The translations under genes were made by a program, and so were the position numbers. Below, one piece after another: positions 55,760 to 61,973 of a stretch of DNA of 64,000 nt. Within the stretch, counting starts at the first letter, position 1. Every line of letters begins with the position of its first letter. Source of the DNA: an uncultured delta proteobacterium. Lineage in GTDB: Bacteria; Myxococcota_A; UBA9160; SMWR01. The notes beneath the pieces are model-generated. The model ran no database searches, had not been told where the DNA came from, and saw only the letters and a program-made list of their open reading frames with translations. Location of the stretch: the NCBI GenBank assembly GCA_963832165.1, contig CAWHTE010000007.1, positions 768,001-832,000 on the forward strand, written 5' to 3'.

Positions 55760-57156
55760 GTCCGCGGCCAGTCGTGCGCCCACGGCCGCGCGCGTTCGAA
55801 CGCGAACGCGGCTTGCAGCACGAGATCGTCGCGGTGGCGCGGCGCGGCGATCTGCAGGCCGACCGGCAGTCCCGCCTTCGAAAGACCCGCTCGCACCGTG
55901 GCCGCGGGGTGCCAGGACAGGTTCCACGGAATCGTGAAGCTCGCGACGCCGACGGGCGCCTGGACGCGGCCCTCGGTCTCCGCGGGCAGGGGTCCGCGCG
56001 CGGGCGGCGCATCGAACGGAACCGTCGGCGTGAGCACGAGGTCGTAGCGATCGAATATTTCGGCGCACCAGCGGTTGAGCTTCTCGCGCTCGCGGCGGAT
56101 CTCCGCCCAGAACAAAGGTGTCATGCGCCGCCCCGCGAGCATGCCCTGGAGATAACCGCGCCCGAACTCGTGCTCGTGCTCGGCCAACAGGGGCTCGATC
56201 TTCCCCAGCCCCTCGAACGCACCGAGCATGCCCCACTTGCGGCCGAGCTCCGGCGGGCCGCCCTCGAACTCCTCGAAGCGGTGGTCCTGCGCGAAGAAGC
56301 GCGCCGCATCGTACGCGAGGTCGGCGACGTCGCTCTGCACCACGGCATAGCCGAAATCCGCCGAATAGCCGACGCGCAGCCCGCTCGGCAGATCGCCGAG
56401 CACCGCGCGGTACGAGATGCCCGGGTGCGGCAGCGAGTTGGGGTCGCGCGGGTGTGCGCCCGCGGTGAGATCGAGGAACAGCGCGGCGTCTTCGACCGTG
56501 CGCGTGAGCGGTCCGTGCACGGCGGTGTCGTCCATCACCCAGAGCTCGCCGTCGTGCGGGATCCGGCCGTAGCTCGGCTTGAGCCCGAAGCAGCCCGTGA
56601 ACGATGCGGGCAGGCGCACCGATCCTCCGCCGTCGCTCGCGGTGACGAGCGAGACGACGCCACCCGCGATCGCCGCGGAGGATCCGCCCGACGACCCGCC
56701 CGGCGTGCGCTCGAGATTCCACGGATTGCGCGACGCGCCGAACAGCAGGTTCTTGGTGATCGCGGTATGCCCGAACTCGGGAGCGTTGGTCTTGCCGACC
56801 ACGATGGCGCCGGCGCCGCGCAGCCGCTCCACCTGGGCCGAGTCGGCGCTCGCGAGGTTGTCCTTGAACGGAACCGAGCCGTGCGACGTCACGAGCCCGC
56901 GCGCGTCTTCGAGGTCCTTCACGCCGAGCGGGATCCCCTCGAGCGGGCGCGCGTCGCCGCTCGCGATCCGCTGATCCGCGGCGCGCGCTGCAGCGAGCAA
57001 TGCATCGCGATCGTCGACCGCGGCGAACGCATTGAGCGTCTCGTGCGTCGCGTCGATGCGCCCGAGCGTCTCGGTCATGAGCTCGACGGCCGAGACCGAT
57101 CGCCGCGCGAGCGCTTCGATCTGCTGGGTGAGGGGGCGGAACAGGAGATCCGACAT
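55756..57156 (-). CDS. Amidase signature family protein
   Basis: [34 protein letters not shown]. Confidence 0.93.
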
Positions 57157-57194
57157 GGCGGTACCTCGCGGTGTTCGGGGTGCCCGCCAGCTTA

Positions 57195-58016
57195 TCAGCT
57201 GGGCGCAGGCGCGTGGGCGGAGAGGTGCTGGGTGACCGCGACGATCACCTCGATCGGGCGCTCCAGGTGGACGTTGTGTCCCGCACCCGAGATCTCGATC
57301 AGCCGCGCAGACGGCAGCTTCGCCACTGCCGCTTCCGCGCCGTCTCTCGTGAGCAGCGTGCTGTGGGCCCCGCGGATCACGAGCGCCGGGCAGCGCACGT
57401 CCTCGAGCCGTTCGTGCGGCGTCGGCGGCAGCCCGAACCAGCGTGGATCGAATTTGTAGACGAACCGGCCATCGGGCAGCTCGCGGATCGAGCGCTCGGC
57501 GAGCGACTCGCGCACGCGTTCGGACACACCCGGTGTCGACGGCATCAGGCGGTAGCGCGCGATCGCCTCTTCGCGCGTCGCGTAGGAGCGACGCAGCGAG
57601 AGCGCGAGGCGCGTGCGGCGACGCTCGCGCGCGGCCGCACCGAACGAGACCTCGATCGCCACGAGCCCCCACACGCGGGGATGTCGAGCGGCGAAATCGA
57701 GTGCGATGTGACCACCCATCGAATGCCCGACGAGTGCTATGTCTTCGTGGCCGAGCTCTGCGACGAGCGCTTCGAGATCGCGATGAAACGCGCCGACGAC
57801 GAGCTCTTCGGGATGATCGCTGTCTCCGTGACCGCGAAAATCCAGACACACGACCCGGAAGTGCTCCGCGAGTGACGGGGCGATTTCGTCCCACCAATGC
57901 AGGTTTGCGCCGCCGCCGTGCAACATCACCACGCACGGTGAACTCGGGTCGCCGCGCAGCTCGGCGTTGAGGGAGACCCCGTCGAGCTCGGGTCGGGTGA
58001 AGCGCAGCGTCTCCAT
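57195..58016 (-). CDS. Alpha/beta hydrolase
   Basis: [24 protein letters not shown]. Confidence 0.92.
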
Positions 58017-58258
58017 GTCGCGCGCCGATGCTAGCCCGGCGGTGCCCCTCGCGTGCGTCTGTCGCGGTCGAGTGAGCCCGCACACGCACAACTCGGGCTC
58101 CGATCGAGGCAGCGCGGAAATGGCTCGGGGAGCCCGAAATCGGGCGTTTTTCGATTGTCACCGACGCTCGACACCCCTATGATCCGGCCCGCCTTCGAGC
58201 ATTCGACGTGTTCGACGAGCCGAAAACGTGACCGAGAAATGTGGAGTGGGAGGAACCG

Positions 58259-58462
58259 ATGGCAGCCAAGAAGAAGGCCGCGAAGGCGACGGGTGGTGAT
58301 CTGATCATCTCCAAGTCGCGCACCAAGGCCGCAGCGAAGAAGTGCAACGTCGGGAGCGAGTTCTATGGCGCGCTCGACAAGAAGGTTCGAGCGATCATCG
58401 CGGACGCCGAGGGGCGCGCGACCGGCAACAAGCGCAAGACGCTGAAGGCCGTCGACCTCTAG
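58259..58462 (+). CDS. Bacterial histone-fold protein (DUF1931/HMf-like) with Lys-rich N-tail
   Basis: 67 aa, basic; LII.KS..K...NV..EF..AL...V..II..A..RA..N.RKTL...DL histone pattern (RxTxxxxD); GGAGG RBS. Confidence 0.82.
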   Translation: MAAKKKAAKATGGDLIISKSRTKAAAKKCNVGSEFYGALDKKVRAIIADAEGRATGNKRKTLKAVDL

Positions 58463-58492
58463 CCTCGAAGGCTGGAGCGTCGGGGATCTAAG

Positions 58493-58523
58493 ACGGGCCC
58501 GCCGGCAATGCCGGCGGGCCCGT
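58493..58523. terminator. Hairpin between convergent histone and CocE-like genes
   Basis: Perfect 14-bp stem ACGGGCCCGCCGGC-aat-GCCGGCGGGCCCGT. Confidence 0.7.
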
Positions 58524-58538
58524 TCTGCTGGAGCCCGG

Positions 58539-60158
58539 CTACGGAACCGCGTAGAACCGCAGCGCCGATGGGCGCTCGTGGTCGTGATACACGGTGCGCA
58601 CGAGCGGCGCGGGGTCGCCGGGCTCACAGCGCGCGAAGCGCGGCAGCGACGAGCCCGCCACCTCGACGCGCAGCCGCGTCCCCGCGGCGATCCGCGCCGC
58701 CGCGACGCCGAGATCGATTTCGAATGGGCCTGCGTCCGGGTGCGCGCGCGCGATGCCCTCGGCGAGCCAGCGCGCGGCGCCGTTCGGCGCGACCGCGACG
58801 AGCTTCGCGCTCGTGTCCTGCGCGGATGCGGGCGCGTCCGCGTGCAGGCAGAGCCGCACGCGGCCCGCGATCTCGAGCGATGCCGAGAGCGGCTCGCCCG
58901 TGAAGCAGAGCACGTCGCCGCGCTCCTCCACGGGTCGCTGATCGACGGCGCCCGCGACACCCGCGACGGCCGCACCGCCCAGCGAGGGAACGGGATCCGC
59001 CGGATCCGACACGAACGAGTCGGCGCGGTCCTGGCCGGGCTCGGCCGCGAGCCGGCCATCTCCCGCGGCCGAGTTCGCGGAGCCATCGCCGCGCAGGTAG
59101 AGCGTGTGCTCGCGCGTCGATTCGGGCGGCCAGCGCAGCGCCTCGCGCCAGCCCGCACCGCGCACGAACACGCGCGCGGGCACGTCGCGCACGGGACGCG
59201 CTCCCACGGCGTGCGCGACGAAGCGGAGCACGGCGCGCGAGGTCACCGCGATGAGGTTCGTCCCGCGCGCGCGCTCCTCGCGCGGAATCGGTGCGGCGCC
59301 CCAGGGCCCGATCAGCAGCTCGGGCGCGGCGAGCCCGCGCTCGGCGTTGTGCGCGGAGATCGTCTCGAAGTCGGCATAGACCGCCGGGAACGCGCACTCG
59401 TACCAACCGCCCAGGAACAGCGCGCGCGGCGGTGACGCGGGGAGCGCGGGCGTGCGATCGCGCCACCACGCGTCTCGCTTCGGATGCGCGAGCCAATCGC
59501 GAAACGCAGAAAGCTCGCGCAGCGCGACGCGGTCGCACTCGCCGAGCGGGCGATGGCGCGCAGCGCGATCGAGATCGAGCGCGCTGGGCTCGTAGCCGAA
59601 GCGACCGTCGACGCGCGCGGCGAGAGCGAGTGCCGCTTCGAGCTGCAGCACACCGCCCGGGTGCAGCCACGCATACGGATCGCGCGCGCCGAATCCCGCG
59701 ACGAGCCCCGCCACGGGCGCGCTCGCGGCCGATAGCGCGGCCCACGCCGCGAACGCGGAGTAGCCGACGCCGAGCAGCACGACTGATCCGTCGCACCAGG
59801 GCTGCTCGGAGATCCAGCGCAGCGCCGCGTCTCCGTCGGCGACCTCGTCGGCGAACGGCCGGAACTCACCCTCCGAGGCATCGCGGCCGCGACAGGTCTG
59901 GATCGCCACGGTGCGGCCGTCCTCGGCGAGCCAGTGGGCCAGGCGTTCGATCGGGCTTCCCGCGTTACCGCCCGCGAGCGGGCGCTCGGTGCGGATCAGC
60001 ACGGTGCCGCGCCGGACGCTCGCGTCGCTGGGTCGCAGCACGCGCGTCGCGAGCCGCACACCGTCGGCCGCCGTCATCCACGCGTTCGACTCGAGCACCG
60101 CCGAGCGCGCGGGCGGGAGGCCGAGCCACCGCCGCTCGAGGCGACGGCGAGCGCTCAA
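58539..60158 (-). CDS. CocE/NonD-family hydrolase homolog
   Basis: DGVRLA, RGR..SEG.F, DG...L.WI..QPW.DG, DP.DPVP, DQR.VE.R.DVL.FT; TTG overlaps the upstream stop. Confidence 0.85.
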   Translation of the reverse strand: MSARRRLERRWLGLPPARSAVLESNAWMTAADGVRLATRVLRPSDASVRRGTVLIRTERPLAGGNAGSPIERLAHWLAEDGRTVAIQTCRGRDASEGEFRPFADEVADGDAALRWISEQPWCDGSVVLLGVGYSAFAAWAALSAASAPVAGLVAGFGARDPYAWLHPGGVLQLEAALALAARVDGRFGYEPSALDLDRAARHRPLGECDRVALRELSAFRDWLAHPKRDAWWRDRTPALPASPPRALFLGGWYECAFPAVYADFETISAHNAERGLAAPELLIGPWGAAPIPREERARGTNLIAVTSRAVLRFVAHAVGARPVRDVPARVFVRGAGWREALRWPPESTREHTLYLRGDGSANSAAGDGRLAAEPGQDRADSFVSDPADPVPSLGGAAVAGVAGAVDQRPVEERGDVLCFTGEPLSASLEIAGRVRLCLHADAPASAQDTSAKLVAVAPNGAARWLAEGIARAHPDAGPFEIDLGVAAARIAAGTRLRVEVAGSSLPRFARCEPGDPAPLVRTVYHDHERPSALRFYAVP

Positions 60159-61292
60159 GCGCGTGCGCCGTCGGGATCGAGGTTGACGCCGACCCGGAAC
60201 AGGTGTTCGACGCCCGCGCGCCGCAGCACCTCCGGATCGCGCAGGCCGTGCTCCGCGGCGAGATGGGCGAGCCCCGCGCTCGCGAAGCGCGCGGCCTTCG
60301 CGATCGCGGCCGGCGTCGACTCGGCGTCGCCGAGCGGCAGGCGGTCGGCCACGGCGATCCGGTTCGCGAGCGCGATCAACGCGTAGAAGATCGCGCGGCG
60401 CTCCACCTCGTCGAGCTCGGCGATCGCGCGGAAGATCCGATCGCCCGCGCCGCCGGTCGCGGGCAGCTGGGGTAGCCAGATCGGGCAGCGGCCACTCCGC
60501 GGGCACGAGCGTCTCTTCCGCCGGAAGCTCGCGACGCGCGCGCTCGTCGAGGAACCGGTACACGCGCATCGCGTCGTCCCAGGTCGGGAAGCCCAGATCC
60601 TCGAGCCGGCCCGTGCGCCAGCGCAGCGCCCACTCTTCCGAATCGGATTCGAGCTCCCACATGATCGCCTGCATCAGGCGGAAGTAGCTCCAGTACGCGC
60701 TCTCGAACAGCGAGCGCAAGAGACCCGTGACGTCGGCGATGTCGTCGCCGTCGGCGAGCGCCCAGTAGTGGAACTGCCCCTCGAGCGTCAGCGAGTCGGC
60801 GGGCGGCGACCAGCCCTGCCAATCGTCGGGCTTCTGCTCGACGCCGATCCGCGCGCGCAGCGCGAGCACGAGCAGCTCGCTGTCGATCGACTCGAGCGTG
60901 CGCACCTGCGCTTCTGACGAGGTACGCGCGAACGCCTGGAGCCACTCGTTCGCGGTCGCGATGTCGACGTCGTTGCCGCGCCACGCGTCGAGATCGAGCG
61001 CCGCGACGGTCTGCTCGGGTGTCGCGTACTCGATCACCCACGCCGCATCGGCGAGGCCGATCGCCTTGACCGTGAAGCAGAACTCCGCGGGCGGGAGCTC
61101 CGGGATCAGCGCTTCGGGATTCGGTACGAGCCCGAGGATGCGGCCGCGGTCCGCGAGCGGCGACTCGCACACGATCGCCACCTGCGCGTCGAGCGGAAGG
61201 CCGGCGAGCGCCCGTTCGGCCGCTTTCGGATCGCGGCGCGCGAGAGCGAGCAGCTCTTGCGCGCCGGGTTCGGTGCGAGCGACCCCGTCCAT
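60155..61292 (-). CDS. DUF6178-like protein (frameshift near 60480)
   Basis: LDLDAW, EE.ALRWR.GRLEDLGF, then LAN...VAD and LFRVG in ORF 60155..60406. Confidence 0.7.
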
Positions 61293-61337
61293 CGCGGCGC
61301 GAGGGTAGCAGGGGCTGCTGCGGCTATGCTCCCCGCC

Positions 61338-61973
61338 GTGACCTCCGTCGATCAGATCCGCCTCTCCCTCGCTGCCCGAAAGCCGGTGCTCTTGCCCGTG
61401 GGTCGGGTGCGCCACGCCGCGGTCGCGATGGTGCTCGCCGAGGGAAAGTCGGGAACGGAGGTGCTGTTCATCGAACGCGCGCGCGCCCTGGGTGATCCGT
61501 GGTCGGGCCACATGGCGTTCCCGGGCGGCCGCGTCGATCCGGGTGATGCGAGCGGCCGCGCGGCGGCCGAGCGCGAGACGCTCGAGGAAGTGGGACTCTC
61601 GCTGGCCGGGTCCGAGCTGCTCGGACGCCTCGACGACAAGACAGGCAACCCGCGCACGAACCCCGAGCTCGTGATCTCCGCGTTCGTCTACCACTCGCCA
61701 TCGCCGGGTGCGCTCGCGATCAACCACGAAGTGCAGGACGCGTTCTGGTTCCCGCTCGACGGGCTGCTCGATCGCGCGCGCCACGTGCAGTACACCGCGC
61801 ACGGCGAGTACGAGTTTCCGGGCATCCTGGTCGGCGAGCCGGACCGCCACGTGGTCTGGGGGCTGACCTACAGCTTCCTCGAGTCGTTCTTCGTCACGCT
61901 CGGAACGCCGCTGCCCGACCGCTGGACCGCAGAGATGAGGAGCTTCGCACGCCAGATCGAGCAGCGGAGTTAG
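61338..61973 (+). CDS. Nudix hydrolase, CoA pyrophosphatase type
   Basis: AAVA, WSGHMAFPGG, AERETLEEVG, VWGLT. Confidence 0.92.
   Translation: MTSVDQIRLSLAARKPVLLPVGRVRHAAVAMVLAEGKSGTEVLFIERARALGDPWSGHMAFPGGRVDPGDASGRAAAERETLEEVGLSLAGSELLGRLDDKTGNPRTNPELVISAFVYHSPSPGALAINHEVQDAFWFPLDGLLDRARHVQYTAHGEYEFPGILVGEPDRHVVWGLTYSFLESFFVTLGTPLPDRWTAEMRSFARQIEQRS

What the first reader, a model, noticed from the sequence alone, without database searches (positions are those of the whole stretch)
58259..58462. Bacterial histone with a eukaryote-like Lys-rich N-terminal tail
A stand-alone 67-aa basic gene with its own RBS and terminator. It has the histone-fold pattern ending RKTLKAVDL, like archaeal HMf and the Bdellovibrio histone. 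It is preceded by AAKKKAAKATGG, and KATGG recalls the KSTGG/KQTGG-type motifs of eukaryotic tails. Tails are uncommon in characterised prokaryotic histones. Inference: a nucleoid protein that may be regulated by lysine modification.
Basis: partly seen in the sequence, partly recalled or inferred. Interest (0 to 1): 0.72.

Follow-up and report, generated by a model that had tools for sequence, protein, structure and literature searches.

The report
Tailed face-to-face bacterial histone gene
This small stand-alone gene encodes a real bacterial histone with a short lysine-rich tail, but it belongs to the tetramer-forming "face-to-face" histone class of uncultured Myxococcota described in 2024-2025, so it is a good catch and not a new kind of protein.

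Summary
ORF 58259-58462 (+) encodes a 67-aa protein of pI 10.3. It has a Shine-Dalgarno site, a promoter-like site and a 14-bp GC hairpin after the stop.

It is a histone, but closer to the face-to-face (FtF) alpha3-truncated class than to Bdellovibrio HBb. A family profile hits HTkC (E 2.4e-17) and HLp (4.7e-14) ahead of HBb (1e-10). The three HLp tetramer residues and the RD clamp are conserved. A four-copy model reproduces the FtF interface (score 0.90, best control 0.00), though similar tetramers are already solved.

The disordered 13-residue tail is a family trait. In 80 distinct relatives it is 8-20 residues long, about one-third Lys, and 67 of 80 start MAA[K/R]. The KATGG resemblance to H3 is chance (2 of 80).

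Schwab et al. 2024 already report positively charged tails as common in bacterial FtF histones. This scan has met the family about eleven times before. Verdict: new member of a known kind.

Extras:
- The gene is present in 85 of 85 sampled genomes of its class.
- The genome also encodes a ZZ-histone and a nucleosomal-type histone.
- It encodes IHF alpha and beta, and no HU was found.

Lysine modification of the tail remains untested.

The parts
58155..58183 (+). Sigma70-like promoter candidate: TTGTCA, 17-nt spacer, TATGAT
   Evidence: 10 of 12 consensus matches, 1 site found against 0.1 expected. A TATGAT hexamer lies 42-186 nt upstream of the ATG in 41 of 78 distinct relatives, against 0.02 expected per locus. 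This is a consensus match only; no transcript data.
58248..58254 (+). Shine-Dalgarno site GGGAGGA, 4 nt before the ATG
   Evidence: Read. An SD-like motif lies upstream of the equivalent ATG in 76 of 80 distinct relatives.
58259..58462 (+). CDS of the 67-aa FtF-type histone, stop codon included
58259..58297 (+). Codons 1-13: disordered Lys/Ala-rich N-terminal tail MAAKKKAAKATGG (4 Lys, no acidic residue)
   Evidence: mean pLDDT 49 for residues 1-10, below 50 at 9-12; tails in 80 distinct relatives are 8-20 residues (median 15), with median K+R of 5, an acidic residue in 1 of 80, and MAA[K/R] in 67 of 80.
58298..58459 (+). Codons 14-67: alpha3-truncated histone fold. Alpha1 about 15-27, alpha2 33-56, L2 with R59-K60-T61, and a one-turn alpha3 at 64-66. 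Tetramer residues R53, N57, R59; RD clamp R59-D66.
   Evidence: residue mapping onto HLp from PMC12701072 section 7.
58493..58523 (.). Perfect 14-bp GC-rich hairpin with a 3-nt loop, between the convergent histone and S15-peptidase genes. Likely a terminator for both, with no U-run.
   Evidence: MFE -52.6 kcal/mol for 58463-58545, z -4.04. Not flagged by the T-run-based scan.

Best explanation
The gene encodes a face-to-face (FtF) alpha3-truncated histone, the Myxococcota counterpart of Leptospira HLp and archaeal HTkC.

Proposed mechanism:
1. Two chains form the usual histone handshake dimer.
2. Two dimers join through the C-terminal end of alpha2, loop L2 and the one-turn alpha3 (R53, N57, R59, V65-L67) into a closed tetramer.
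3. By analogy with HLp, the tetramer binds DNA non-specifically and wraps about 60 bp around its basic rim. The contacts would be alpha1 (S20, R21, K23, K27), the L1-L2 bridge (around K60-T61) and K63.
4. Each chain adds a disordered 13-residue tail with four lysines, directly N-terminal to alpha1. The four tails add about 16 positive charges per tetramer. They most likely raise non-specific DNA affinity and neutralise phosphate charge.

The protein is probably a major nucleoid protein of this lineage.

Shown here: homology, conserved interface and DNA-contact residues, predicted fold and tetramer, tail disorder and tail conservation, lineage-wide retention.

Inferred: DNA wrapping, abundance, and what the tail does.
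For: Sequence:
- A single-sequence phmmer search of the PDB hits only HTkC 9f2c (E 0.0022) and HLp 9qt0 (E 0.053).
- The family profile A2 ranks HTkC 2.4e-17, HLp 4.7e-14, HBb 1e-10, HmvA 1e-4 and HMfA/B 0.16-0.6.

Interface and DNA contacts:
- HLp tetramer residues R49, N53, R55 and the RD clamp R55-D62 (PMC12701072 section 7) align to R53, N57, R59 and D66.
- In the 38-sequence alignment, T61 and D66 are invariant and R53, N57, R59 are at least 90% conserved.
- HBb has S and D at the R53 and N57 positions. This matches Schwab's statement that bacterial dimers lack these residues.
- HLp DNA-contact residues S14, K15, K17, K21, R59 align to S20, R21, K23, K27, K63. R21 and K23 are invariant and K27 and K63 nearly invariant in 30 close homologues.

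Structure:
- AF2 gives pLDDT 80.6, helices 19-25, 33-56 and 64-66, and a disordered N-terminus.
- Foldseek's best hits are HTkC, HLp and HBb (target-normalised TM 0.73-0.84, rmsd 1.7-2.3 A over 55-57 columns, E 3e-3 to 0.14), ahead of eukaryotic histones.
- Four-copy model: score 0.90 against a best of 3 controls of 0.00. The mark was reached by 20 of 30 proteins solved as pairs of one chain and by 1 of 23 solved as single chains. Runs agree in at least 97% of contacts and partner pLDDT is at least 84. The partner touches one copy through the handshake interface and another through residues 52-53, 56-57, 59 and 65-66, which is the FtF interface.

Retention:
- One copy in the window's own genome with the protein query.
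- 38 of 41 relatives hold a match.
- 85 of 85 sampled genomes of the own class match at E<=0.001, 83 of them at E<=1e-18.

Tail: counts in the parts list.

Context:
- Monocistronic, with its own SD, promoter-like site and hairpin.
- The genome's only two PF00216 genes score as IHF alpha and IHF beta above NCBIfam cut-offs, so no HU was found.
Against: - No experiment on this protein or any Myxococcota homologue was found. DNA binding, tetramer formation and abundance are all inferred.
- Pfam and NCBIfam give no hit at E<=10.
- Foldseek E-values are weak (3e-3 at best) because the protein is short.
- The tetramer prediction may be recalled from the solved HLp and HTkC tetramers. Its calibration used two copies, not four, and my own alignment was used.
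- The two characterised FtF histones (HLp 63 aa, HTkC 59-aa chain) have no Lys-rich tail. HLp's first 6-7 residues are simply unresolved. The tail's role therefore has no experimental precedent in this class.
- HTkC has E, not N, at the N57 position, so that residue is not universal in FtF histones.
- The genome is 89% complete, so an HU gene could be missing from the assembly.
Confidence: 0.82

Rival explanations
1. It is an HBb/Bd0055-like 'bacterial dimer' histone. It would act as a dimer that bends or coats DNA and would not form a wrapping tetramer. This is.
For: The fold and alpha3 truncation are shared with HBb (Foldseek target-normalised TM 0.73-0.78). The family profile also hits HBb at E 1e-10. 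The tetramer is only a prediction.
Against: The profile scores FtF histones 3-7 orders of magnitude better. R53 and N57, which Schwab et al. give as the residues that bacterial dimers lack, are present and at least 90% conserved, whereas HBb has S and D there. The four-copy model places exactly these residues at a dimer-dimer contact. A separate HBb-like histone domain already exists in this genome, in the ZZ-histone (E 4.5e-8 to HBb).
Confidence: 0.07
2. The tail is a regulatory handle of the eukaryotic kind. Its lysines, or its conserved Ala-Ala-Lys N-terminus after Met removal, would be acetylated or methylated, or read by a partner such as the ZZ domain of the co-encoded ZZ-histone. This would tune chromatin. 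It is compatible with the best explanation and adds a layer to it.
For: The tail is disordered, lysine-rich, and conserved in composition. Its first residues are conserved: MAA[K/R] in 67 of 80. The genome encodes a ZZ-histone. The ZZ domain is found in 74 of 85 sampled genomes of the class. Schwab et al. raised ZZ-tail binding as a possibility. Lysine acetylation of bacterial nucleoid proteins such as HBsu exists (PMC8801598, search listing only).
Against: The supposed H3-like motif is not conserved (2 of 80). No modifier or reader family was detected among the three genes scanned on each side. The ZZ domain also occurs in 57 of 315 sampled genomes outside the class. There, profile hits are weaker (E 1e-5 to 4e-19, most 1e-7 to 1e-13), and in at least G418 the hit lies beside the ZZ domain, so ZZ does not depend on this tail. 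Schwab et al. judged ZZ-tail binding unlikely because the pocket residues are not conserved. Tail length and sequence vary freely after the first six residues, as expected for plain electrostatics. A conserved MAAKK start could equally reflect translation initiation or N-terminal processing (my recollection, no call).
Confidence: 0.1
3. It is a histone-fold protein that does not organise DNA. It could resemble the DUF1931 pseudodimers that lack DNA-binding residues, or be a subunit of some other complex.
For: One public source labels a homologue 'DUF1931 domain-containing protein'. Nothing experimental exists for this clade.
Against: It is a 67-aa singlet with no PF09123 hit. The DNA-contact residues of HLp are conserved. 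It has net charge +11 and pI 10.25. It is a stand-alone gene, as is usual for nucleoid proteins (PMC11390915 passage).
Confidence: 0.03
4. The tail is an annotation artefact: translation starts further downstream and the mature protein is tail-less. Hu et al. argued this for the long 77-aa form of HLp.
For: Start-codon errors are common in high-GC genomes. Many database homologues carry spurious long N-termini of 84-203 aa.
Against: There is no ATG, GTG or TTG codon in frame between 58259 and the stop. The SD site sits 4 nt before this ATG. 79 of 80 distinct relatives have an ATG-Ala start at the same place, and 76 of 80 have an SD-like site.
Confidence: 0.01

Closest known systems
HLp, the FtF histone of Leptospira perolatii (PDB 9QT0-9QT2; Hu et al. 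2025, PMC12701072)
   Same: Singlet histone with a shortened alpha2 and a one-turn alpha3. The same tetramer residues (R49/N53/R55 align to R53/N57/R59), RD clamp and DNA-contact residue types. Best structural match: target-normalised TM 0.83-0.84, rmsd 1.7-1.9 A. Profile E 4.7e-14. Stand-alone gene in a genome without HU.
   Different: Only about 32% identical. HLp has a short N-terminus of 6-7 unresolved residues that is not Lys-rich (the aligned chain reads ..NAEKD). This protein has 13 residues with 4 Lys. Gene neighbourhoods differ: SMC and MAP in Leptospira, metabolic enzymes and DUF6178 here. HLp's wrapping and tetramer are measured; here they are predicted.
HTkC, the archaeal FtF histone of Thermococcus kodakarensis (PDB 9F2C)
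   Same: Best sequence match both for the single protein (E 0.0022) and for the family profile (2.4e-17). The same truncated fold (target-normalised TM 0.76-0.78).
   Different: Archaeal and tail-less (59-aa chain). It has E at the N57 position. It coexists with nucleosomal histones.
HBb/Bd0055, the 'bacterial dimer' histone of Bdellovibrio bacteriovorus (PDB 8CMP, 8FVX)
   Same: Bacterial alpha3-truncated singlet. Its S-K motif in alpha1 (S9-K10) aligns to S20-R21. It has the RKT loop and RD clamp.
   Different: HBb lacks the tetramer residues (S and D at the R53 and N57 positions), is dimeric and bends DNA (abstract of PMC12701072), has no basic tail, and scores lower (1e-10). The HBb-like domain of this genome sits in a separate ZZ-histone.
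Tailed histones of eukaryotes and Asgard archaea
   Same: A disordered, lysine-rich N-terminal extension ahead of alpha1.
   Different: No sequence homology of the tail; KATGG is chance (2 of 80). The tail is much shorter (13 aa). The core is not nucleosomal: there is no long alpha3 and no four-helix-bundle interface. No writers, erasers or readers are linked to it here. The H3 motif KSTGG is recalled from memory, not from a call.
Lys/Ala-rich 'H1-like' tails on other bacterial DNA-binding proteins, such as actinobacterial HupB and some CarD proteins
   Same: A low-complexity AKKA-type composition (K 32%, A 30%, G 13% in this family) attached to a folded DNA-binding domain. This suggests generic electrostatic enhancement of DNA binding.
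   Different: Those tails are longer, usually C-terminal, and sit on HU or CarD folds, not on a histone fold.

Membership tests
Face-to-face (FtF) alpha3-truncated histones (Schwab 2024; HLp, HTkC) | Histone fold (alpha1-L1-alpha2-L2-alpha3) that forms a handshake dimer | tested here: met
   AF2 model pLDDT 80.6. Foldseek top hits are all histones. The four-copy model shows alpha2-alpha2 crossing contacts (39/43/46/47) with error of about 0.4 A.
Face-to-face (FtF) alpha3-truncated histones (Schwab 2024; HLp, HTkC) | Alpha3 truncated to 3-4 residues at the C-terminus, and alpha2 shorter than in nucleosomal histones | tested here: met
   The model has alpha3 at 64-66 and the protein ends at 67; alpha2 is 33-56, 24 residues. 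Definition from PMC11390915.
Face-to-face (FtF) alpha3-truncated histones (Schwab 2024; HLp, HTkC) | Dimer-dimer residues R and N in late alpha2 plus R of L2 (HLp R49, N53, R55; logo R48, N52) | tested here: met
   They align to R53, N57, R59. Each is at least 90% conserved in 38 diverse relatives and invariant in 30 close ones.
Face-to-face (FtF) alpha3-truncated histones (Schwab 2024; HLp, HTkC) | RxTxxxxD motif and RD clamp in L2/alpha3 | tested here: met
   R59-K60-T61...D66. T61 and D66 are invariant in 38 of 38.
Face-to-face (FtF) alpha3-truncated histones (Schwab 2024; HLp, HTkC) | Confident closed-tetramer prediction (the criterion Schwab et al. used) or a measured tetramer | tested here: met
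   Prediction only. Score 0.90 against a best control of 0.00. The mark was reached by 20 of 30 homo-pairs and 1 of 23 single chains. Contacts agree at least 97% and pLDDT is at least 84. Interface residues are 52-53, 56-57, 59 and 65-66. The result may be recalled from solved HLp and HTkC.
Face-to-face (FtF) alpha3-truncated histones (Schwab 2024; HLp, HTkC) | Non-specific DNA binding with about 60-bp wrapping | not testable with these tools
   Only the conservation of HLp's contact residues could be checked.
Bacterial dimer histones (HBb/Bd0055 type) | Absence of the FtF dimer-dimer residues, and sequence clustering with HBb | tested here: not met
   R53 and N57 are present where HBb has S and D. 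The profile E to HBb is 1e-10 against 2.4e-17 and 4.7e-14 to FtF histones. The single-sequence search does not reach HBb at E<=10.
Nucleosomal archaeal/eukaryotic-type histones (PF00808/PF00125; HMfB) | Full-length alpha3 of about 10 residues, a four-helix-bundle interface, and a Pfam match | tested here: not met
   No Pfam family at E<=10. Alpha3 has 3 residues. HMfA/B score E 0.16-0.6 with the profile. A different gene of this genome does meet it (PF00808, 43.9 bits).
DUF1931 pseudodimeric histones (PF09123) | Two fused histone folds in one chain, and a PF09123 match | tested here: not met
   A 67-aa singlet with no PF09123 hit. The 'DUF1931' label on a homologue and on 9qt0 comes from the source records.
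Eukaryote-type histone tail | Conserved tail sequence motifs (H3 K-S-T-G-G type) that serve as modification sites | tested here: not met
   K.TGG occurs in 2 of 80 distinct relatives and 3 of 30 close homologues. Only a small-residue hinge before D/E14 is conserved: G[DE] in 60 of 80.
Eukaryote-type histone tail | A disordered, basic N-terminal extension | tested here: met
   Mean pLDDT 49 for residues 1-10. Four Lys and no acidic residue. Basic in relatives: median K+R of 5, an acidic residue in 1 of 80.
Eukaryote-type histone tail | Post-translational modification of tail lysines, with dedicated writers, erasers or readers | not testable with these tools
   No modifier family among the three genes scanned on each side. 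No RNA or proteome data were reachable.

The most novel reading that the evidence does not exclude
In a whole class of uncultured Myxococcota that appears to have no HU, this tailed FtF histone may be the main chromatin protein. Its nearly invariant mature N-terminus (Ala-Ala-Lys/Arg-Lys-Lys after Met removal) may be a specific modification or reader site and not just charge. One candidate reader is the ZZ zinc-finger of the co-encoded ZZ-histone, echoing how eukaryotic ZZ domains read the H3 N-terminus. That would be a bacterial histone-tail signalling system.
Probability: 0.06. Interest if true: 0.78.

Novelty: new member of a known kind. Interest (0 to 1): 0.28.

Why it matters
Bacterial histones were recognised only in 2023-2025, and only two have been studied in depth (HBb and HLp), neither with a lysine-rich tail. 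This gene represents a very large, uncultured and uncharacterised branch: 2222 clusters at 90% identity, present in every sampled genome of its class. In it a basic tail is the rule, its first residues are conserved, and HU seems to be missing.

It does not change what is known. It does offer a clean natural test case for two questions: what a basic tail adds to a DNA-wrapping histone tetramer, and whether a histone can take over HU's role in a bacterial lineage. The same genome carries three histone classes (FtF, ZZ and nucleosomal-type). That makes it a useful reference for how bacterial histone paralogues divide labour.

Tried and rejected
- Pfam and NCBIfam scans of the protein gave 0 families at E<=10. 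The family is not modelled there.
- The search for related loci with the diverse alignment A2 failed for lack of a conserved 7-10-column stretch. It was repeated with the closer alignment A1.
- One Pfam call failed on wrong coordinates. It was corrected after computing the starts.
- RNA evidence: no RNA holder was listed for window 56500-60500. Expression is untested.
- Supplementary Figures 13, 19 and 20 of Schwab 2024, which show the tails, could not be read. One supplement is a picture-only PDF, and the text search found nothing relevant. They may show Myxococcota tails like this one.
- ZZ-histone as a tail reader: the ZZ domain is in 74 of 85 class genomes. It is also in 57 of 315 sampled genomes outside the class, where profile hits are weaker (E 1e-5 to 4e-19, most 1e-7 to 1e-13) and, in at least G418, lie beside the ZZ domain. 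Co-occurrence therefore gives no specific support.
- DUF6178 as a functional partner. It is the most conserved neighbour: convergent in 64 of 91 loci, some of them duplicate genomes, and in 45 of 56 loci with at least 3.9 kb of flank. But the family is in 255 of 401 phylum genomes, including families with no histone hit, so this is read as clade synteny. Its AF2 model (pLDDT 89.4) has no meaningful Foldseek match (TM about 0.2). The best VIA match is the MgtE N-domain (Z 8.5, rmsd 3.3 A, 121 residues aligned), below the level that is decisive for helical proteins.
- Two paper-reading runs failed on term syntax and were rephrased.
- I did not check whether the third PF00216 match in other Myxococcota is HU.
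Full report
**Observation.** ATG 58259 to TAG 58460-58462 on the + strand gives a 67-aa protein, MAAKKKAAKATGG followed by a core ending RKTLKAVDL. It has 13 Lys and 4 Arg against 6 acidic residues, pI 10.25 and 7.0 kDa.

GGGAGGA lies at 58248-58254, 4 nt before the ATG. The only other in-frame start, GTG 58241, would overlap that site. The ORF has no internal ATG, GTG or TTG codon, so the tail cannot be skipped.

A sigma70-like TTGTCA-17-TATGAT pair lies at 58155-58183, with 1 found against 0.1 expected. A TATGAT hexamer recurs 42-186 nt upstream of the start in 41 of 78 distinct relatives, against 0.02 expected per locus. A full pair scoring at least 10 of 12 is seen in only 15 of 78.

The T-run-based scan missed the terminator. 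Folding 58463-58545 gives a perfect 14-bp GC stem with a 3-nt loop at 58493-58523 (-52.6 kcal/mol, z -4.04). It sits between the histone gene and the convergent S15-peptidase gene.

Both flanks are metabolic genes. On one side lie a beta-eliminating lyase, an amidase and an alpha/beta hydrolase, all on the opposite strand. On the other lie an S15 peptidase and DUF6178 on the opposite strand, then a NUDIX gene on the same strand as the histone. The gene is therefore monocistronic.

**What it is.** Pfam and NCBIfam give nothing. The word-indexed search finds 2222 clusters at E<=0.001 among 2229 candidates. Sources name some of them 'histone H3/H4' or 'DUF1931 domain-containing protein [Myxococcota bacterium]'. 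The exhaustive search of 50%-identity representatives finds 113 at E<=0.001 and 40 at E<=1e-10.

Against PDB sequences the single protein hits only HTkC (9f2c, E 0.0022) and HLp (9qt0, E 0.053). A profile of 38 diverse relatives (A2) ranks them as follows:

| PDB histone | Class | Profile E-value |
|---|---|---|
| HTkC | archaeal FtF | 2.4e-17 |
| HLp | bacterial FtF | 4.7e-14 |
| HBb | bacterial dimer | 1e-10 |
| HmvA | viral | 1e-4 |
| HMfA/B | archaeal nucleosomal | 0.16-0.6 |

The AF2 model (pLDDT 80.6) has helices at 19-25, 33-56 and 64-66 and a disordered N-terminus. Foldseek's best hits are HTkC, HLp and HBb, with target-normalised TM 0.73-0.84 and rmsd 1.7-2.3 A. Eukaryotic core histones follow. 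E-values are weak (3e-3 and worse) because the protein is short.

**FtF or dimer.** I read sections 6 and 7 of Hu et al. 2025 (PMC12701072) in full, plus its abstract and some passages. HLp is a stable tetramer that wraps about 60 bp. [quoted passage not shown] R49, N53 and R55 are conserved in predicted tetrameric bacterial FtF histones. R55-D62 is the RD clamp.

The HMMER alignments map these residues to R53, G56, N57, R59, V65, L67 and D66. The HLp chain numbering is offset by 2 from the paper's, which I verified on eleven other residues named in the paper. R53, N57 and R59 are at least 90% conserved, and T61 and D66 are invariant, in the 38-sequence alignment.

HBb has S and D at the R53 and N57 positions. 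This matches Schwab et al. 2024 (PMC11390915, passages), who say bacterial dimers lack these residues.

HLp's main DNA-binding residues S14, K15, K17, K21 and R59 map to S20, R21, K23, K27 and K63. All keep their residue type, and R21 and K23 are invariant in 30 close homologues.

A four-copy complex prediction scored 0.90 against a best of 3 controls of 0.00. The mark was reached by 20 of 30 proteins solved as pairs of one chain and by 1 of 23 solved as single chains. Runs agree in at least 97% of contacts and partner pLDDT is at least 84. The scored copy touches one copy through the handshake interface and another through residues 52-53, 56-57, 59 and 65-66, which is the FtF interface.

The caveats are those the tool states. 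My own alignment was used, there were four copies where the calibration had two, and HLp and HTkC tetramers are solved, so the pass may only show likeness.

**The tail.** Residues 1-13 are predicted disordered. I took loci from the genome search and the search for related loci and parsed 91 with an ORF. One further locus, L072, has no ATG and was dropped. These gave 80 distinct proteins:

| Tail feature (Met and D/E cap included) | Value |
|---|---|
| Length | 8-20 residues, median 15 |
| K+R count | median 5, range 1-9 |
| Acidic residue before the cap | 1 of 80 |
| Composition | K 32%, A 30%, G 13% |
| Start MA | 79 of 80 |
| Start MAA[K/R] | 67 of 80 |
| G[DE] directly before LIISK | 60 of 80 |
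| K.TGG | 2 of 80 (3 of 30 close homologues) |

The tail is real and conserved as a basic, flexible segment with a conserved start. The resemblance to H3 K-S-T-G-G (recalled, not from a call) is coincidence.

More distant relatives show both tailed and tail-less forms (MADMIISK.., MSDLLVVK..) and fused doublets of about 120 aa.

**What is already published.** Hocher et al. 2023 (PMC10627809, passages) state that most bacterial singlets lack long tails. Part of their analysis removed proteins longer than 65 aa.

Schwab et al. 2024 place FtF histones in Spirochaetota, Planctomycetota, Bdellovibrionota and Myxococcota. [quoted passage not shown] Their supplementary figures on tails could not be read here.

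Hu et al. 2025 shortened HLp to 63 aa on Shine-Dalgarno grounds, and its first 6-7 residues are simply unresolved. No Lys-rich tail of an FtF histone has therefore been studied experimentally, as far as my searches show.

This scan has reported the same family in other genomes at least eleven times, each time as a tailed FtF histone and a new member of a known kind. My tests were run independently and agree.

**Distribution and context.** The window's genome (5.5 Mb, 11 contigs, 89% complete) has one copy with the protein query.
- Relatives: 38 of 41 genomes have a match. The misses are 66%, 77% and 99% complete.
- Phylum sample of 401 genomes (400 plus the window's own genome G000): the A2 profile matches 145. 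All 85 of 85 genomes of the own class match, 83 of them at E<=1e-18. Hits elsewhere are weaker and patchy.
- Public records: 216 stretches of species-representative genomes encode a relative. The best 80 are all MAGs, mostly labelled Myxococcota, Myxococcales or Deltaproteobacteria.

The profile also found two more histone-fold genes in the window's own genome:
- A 153-aa ZZ-type histone. It has an N-terminal Cys-rich finger and an HBb-like fold (E 4.5e-8 to HBb).
- A 69-aa nucleosomal-type histone (PF00808, 43.9 bits against a cut-off of 21.4).

The genome's only two PF00216 genes score above the NCBIfam equivalog cut-offs for IHF alpha (129.7 against 111) and IHF beta (129.4 against 115). 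No HU was found.

In the phylum sample, 82 of 86 genomes of the class have exactly two PF00216 matches. Outside the class, 287 of 315 have three or more. This is my hand count of the table, and matches are not strict copy numbers. The pattern parallels Leptospira, which lacks HU, and suggests the histone fills HU's role. However, it is one clade and so one event. Family f21 also often has two matches and no histone hit. I did not classify the extra genes elsewhere.

**Mechanism.** The best-supported account is a handshake dimer, then a face-to-face tetramer, then non-specific wrapping of roughly 60 bp. Four basic tails emerge beside alpha1 at the DNA-facing rim and add about 16 charges. Homology, conserved residues, the predicted assembly and tail disorder are shown here. 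DNA binding, wrapping, abundance and the tail's effect are inferred.

**Side leads that were followed.**
- ZZ-histone as a tail reader. The ZZ domain is in 74 of 85 class genomes, but also in 57 of 315 outside the class. Schwab et al. note that the eukaryotic pocket residues are not conserved. There is no specific support.
- DUF6178. It lies convergent downstream of the histone in 64 of 91 loci, always in opposite orientation, and in 45 of 56 loci with at least 3.9 kb of flank. In this window and about 20 other loci the S15 peptidase sits between them. DUF6178 occurs in 255 of 401 phylum genomes, including histone-less families. Its model gives no decisive fold match. I read the linkage as clade synteny.
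- DUF6178 frameshift. In this window the gene is split between two frames near 60406-60480, whereas all 64 of 64 relatives keep both parts in one frame.

**Verdict.** It is a histone with a genuine basic tail. It is of the FtF class, not HBb-like or eukaryote-like, and both the class and its tails are in print. It is a new member of a known kind, with modest added value: the conserved MAA[K/R] start, class-wide retention, three histone classes in one genome, and the apparent lack of HU.

Noticed in passing
window 60078-61292 (-), break near 60406-60480: The DUF6178 gene is split between two reading frames. The N-terminal part runs in the frame of the long ORF 58539-61850. The C-terminal 83 aa are the ORF 60155-60406 in another frame. 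All 64 of 64 relatives with both parts keep them in one frame. This is either an assembly indel or a real pseudogene.
   Followed up: partly
window 58539-61850 (-): The 1103-aa ORF listed here is an artefact of high GC content. It strings together the frameshifted DUF6178 gene (60078-61292), an out-of-frame Arg-rich stretch, and a CocE/NonD-type S15 peptidase (58539-60077; PF02129 and PF08530).
   Followed up: yes
window 60078-61292 (-); loci L007-L095: DUF6178 is the most conserved neighbour of the histone gene. It is always convergent: in 64 of 91 loci and in 45 of 56 with at least 3.9 kb of flank. In this class it is a short form of about 380 aa (profile positions 1-351 of 561), acidic (pI 4.7), and confidently folded (pLDDT 89.4). 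Its best fold match is only a moderate MgtE N-domain likeness (Z 8.5). The family is widespread in the phylum without the histone (255 of 401), so the linkage looks like synteny.
   Followed up: partly
L096:1489-1950 (-) = G000 contig C4: The same genome encodes a 153-aa ZZ-type histone with an N-terminal Cys-rich zinc finger and an HBb-like histone fold (E 4.5e-8 to PDB 8cmp). Its ZZ domain is found in 132 of the 401 sampled genomes of the phylum (which include G000) and in 74 of 85 of the own class.
   Followed up: partly
L097:1483-1692 (+) = G000 contig C1: A third histone-fold gene encodes 69 aa of nucleosomal type with a full alpha3 and no basic tail (PF00808 43.9 bits, PF00125 43.1 bits; best PDB sequence match HmvA, E 3.6e-4). 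A bacterium with three histone classes is unusual.
   Followed up: partly
L002:1462-1770 (-) and L003:1441-1767 (-) = G000 contig C5: The only two HU/IHF-family genes of the genome score as IHF beta and IHF alpha, so no HU was found. 82 of 86 sampled genomes of this class have exactly two PF00216 matches, whereas 287 of 315 other genomes of the phylum have three or more (hand count). The tailed histone may have replaced HU in this class.
   Followed up: partly
P0172, P0175, P0191 (about 120 aa); P0174 (260 aa); P0185 (160 aa): Distant relatives include tandem doublets of this histone fold (pseudodimers). One has a 26-residue Lys/Arg-rich tail plus a long acidic C-terminal extension. One 260-aa protein carries two folds after an unrelated N-terminus.
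   Followed up: no
window 58132-58145 (+): A small GC hairpin followed by GTTTTTCGAT lies in the histone's upstream region, just before the -35 element. The scan flags it as terminator-like. It might insulate the histone promoter, or it might be chance.
   Followed up: no
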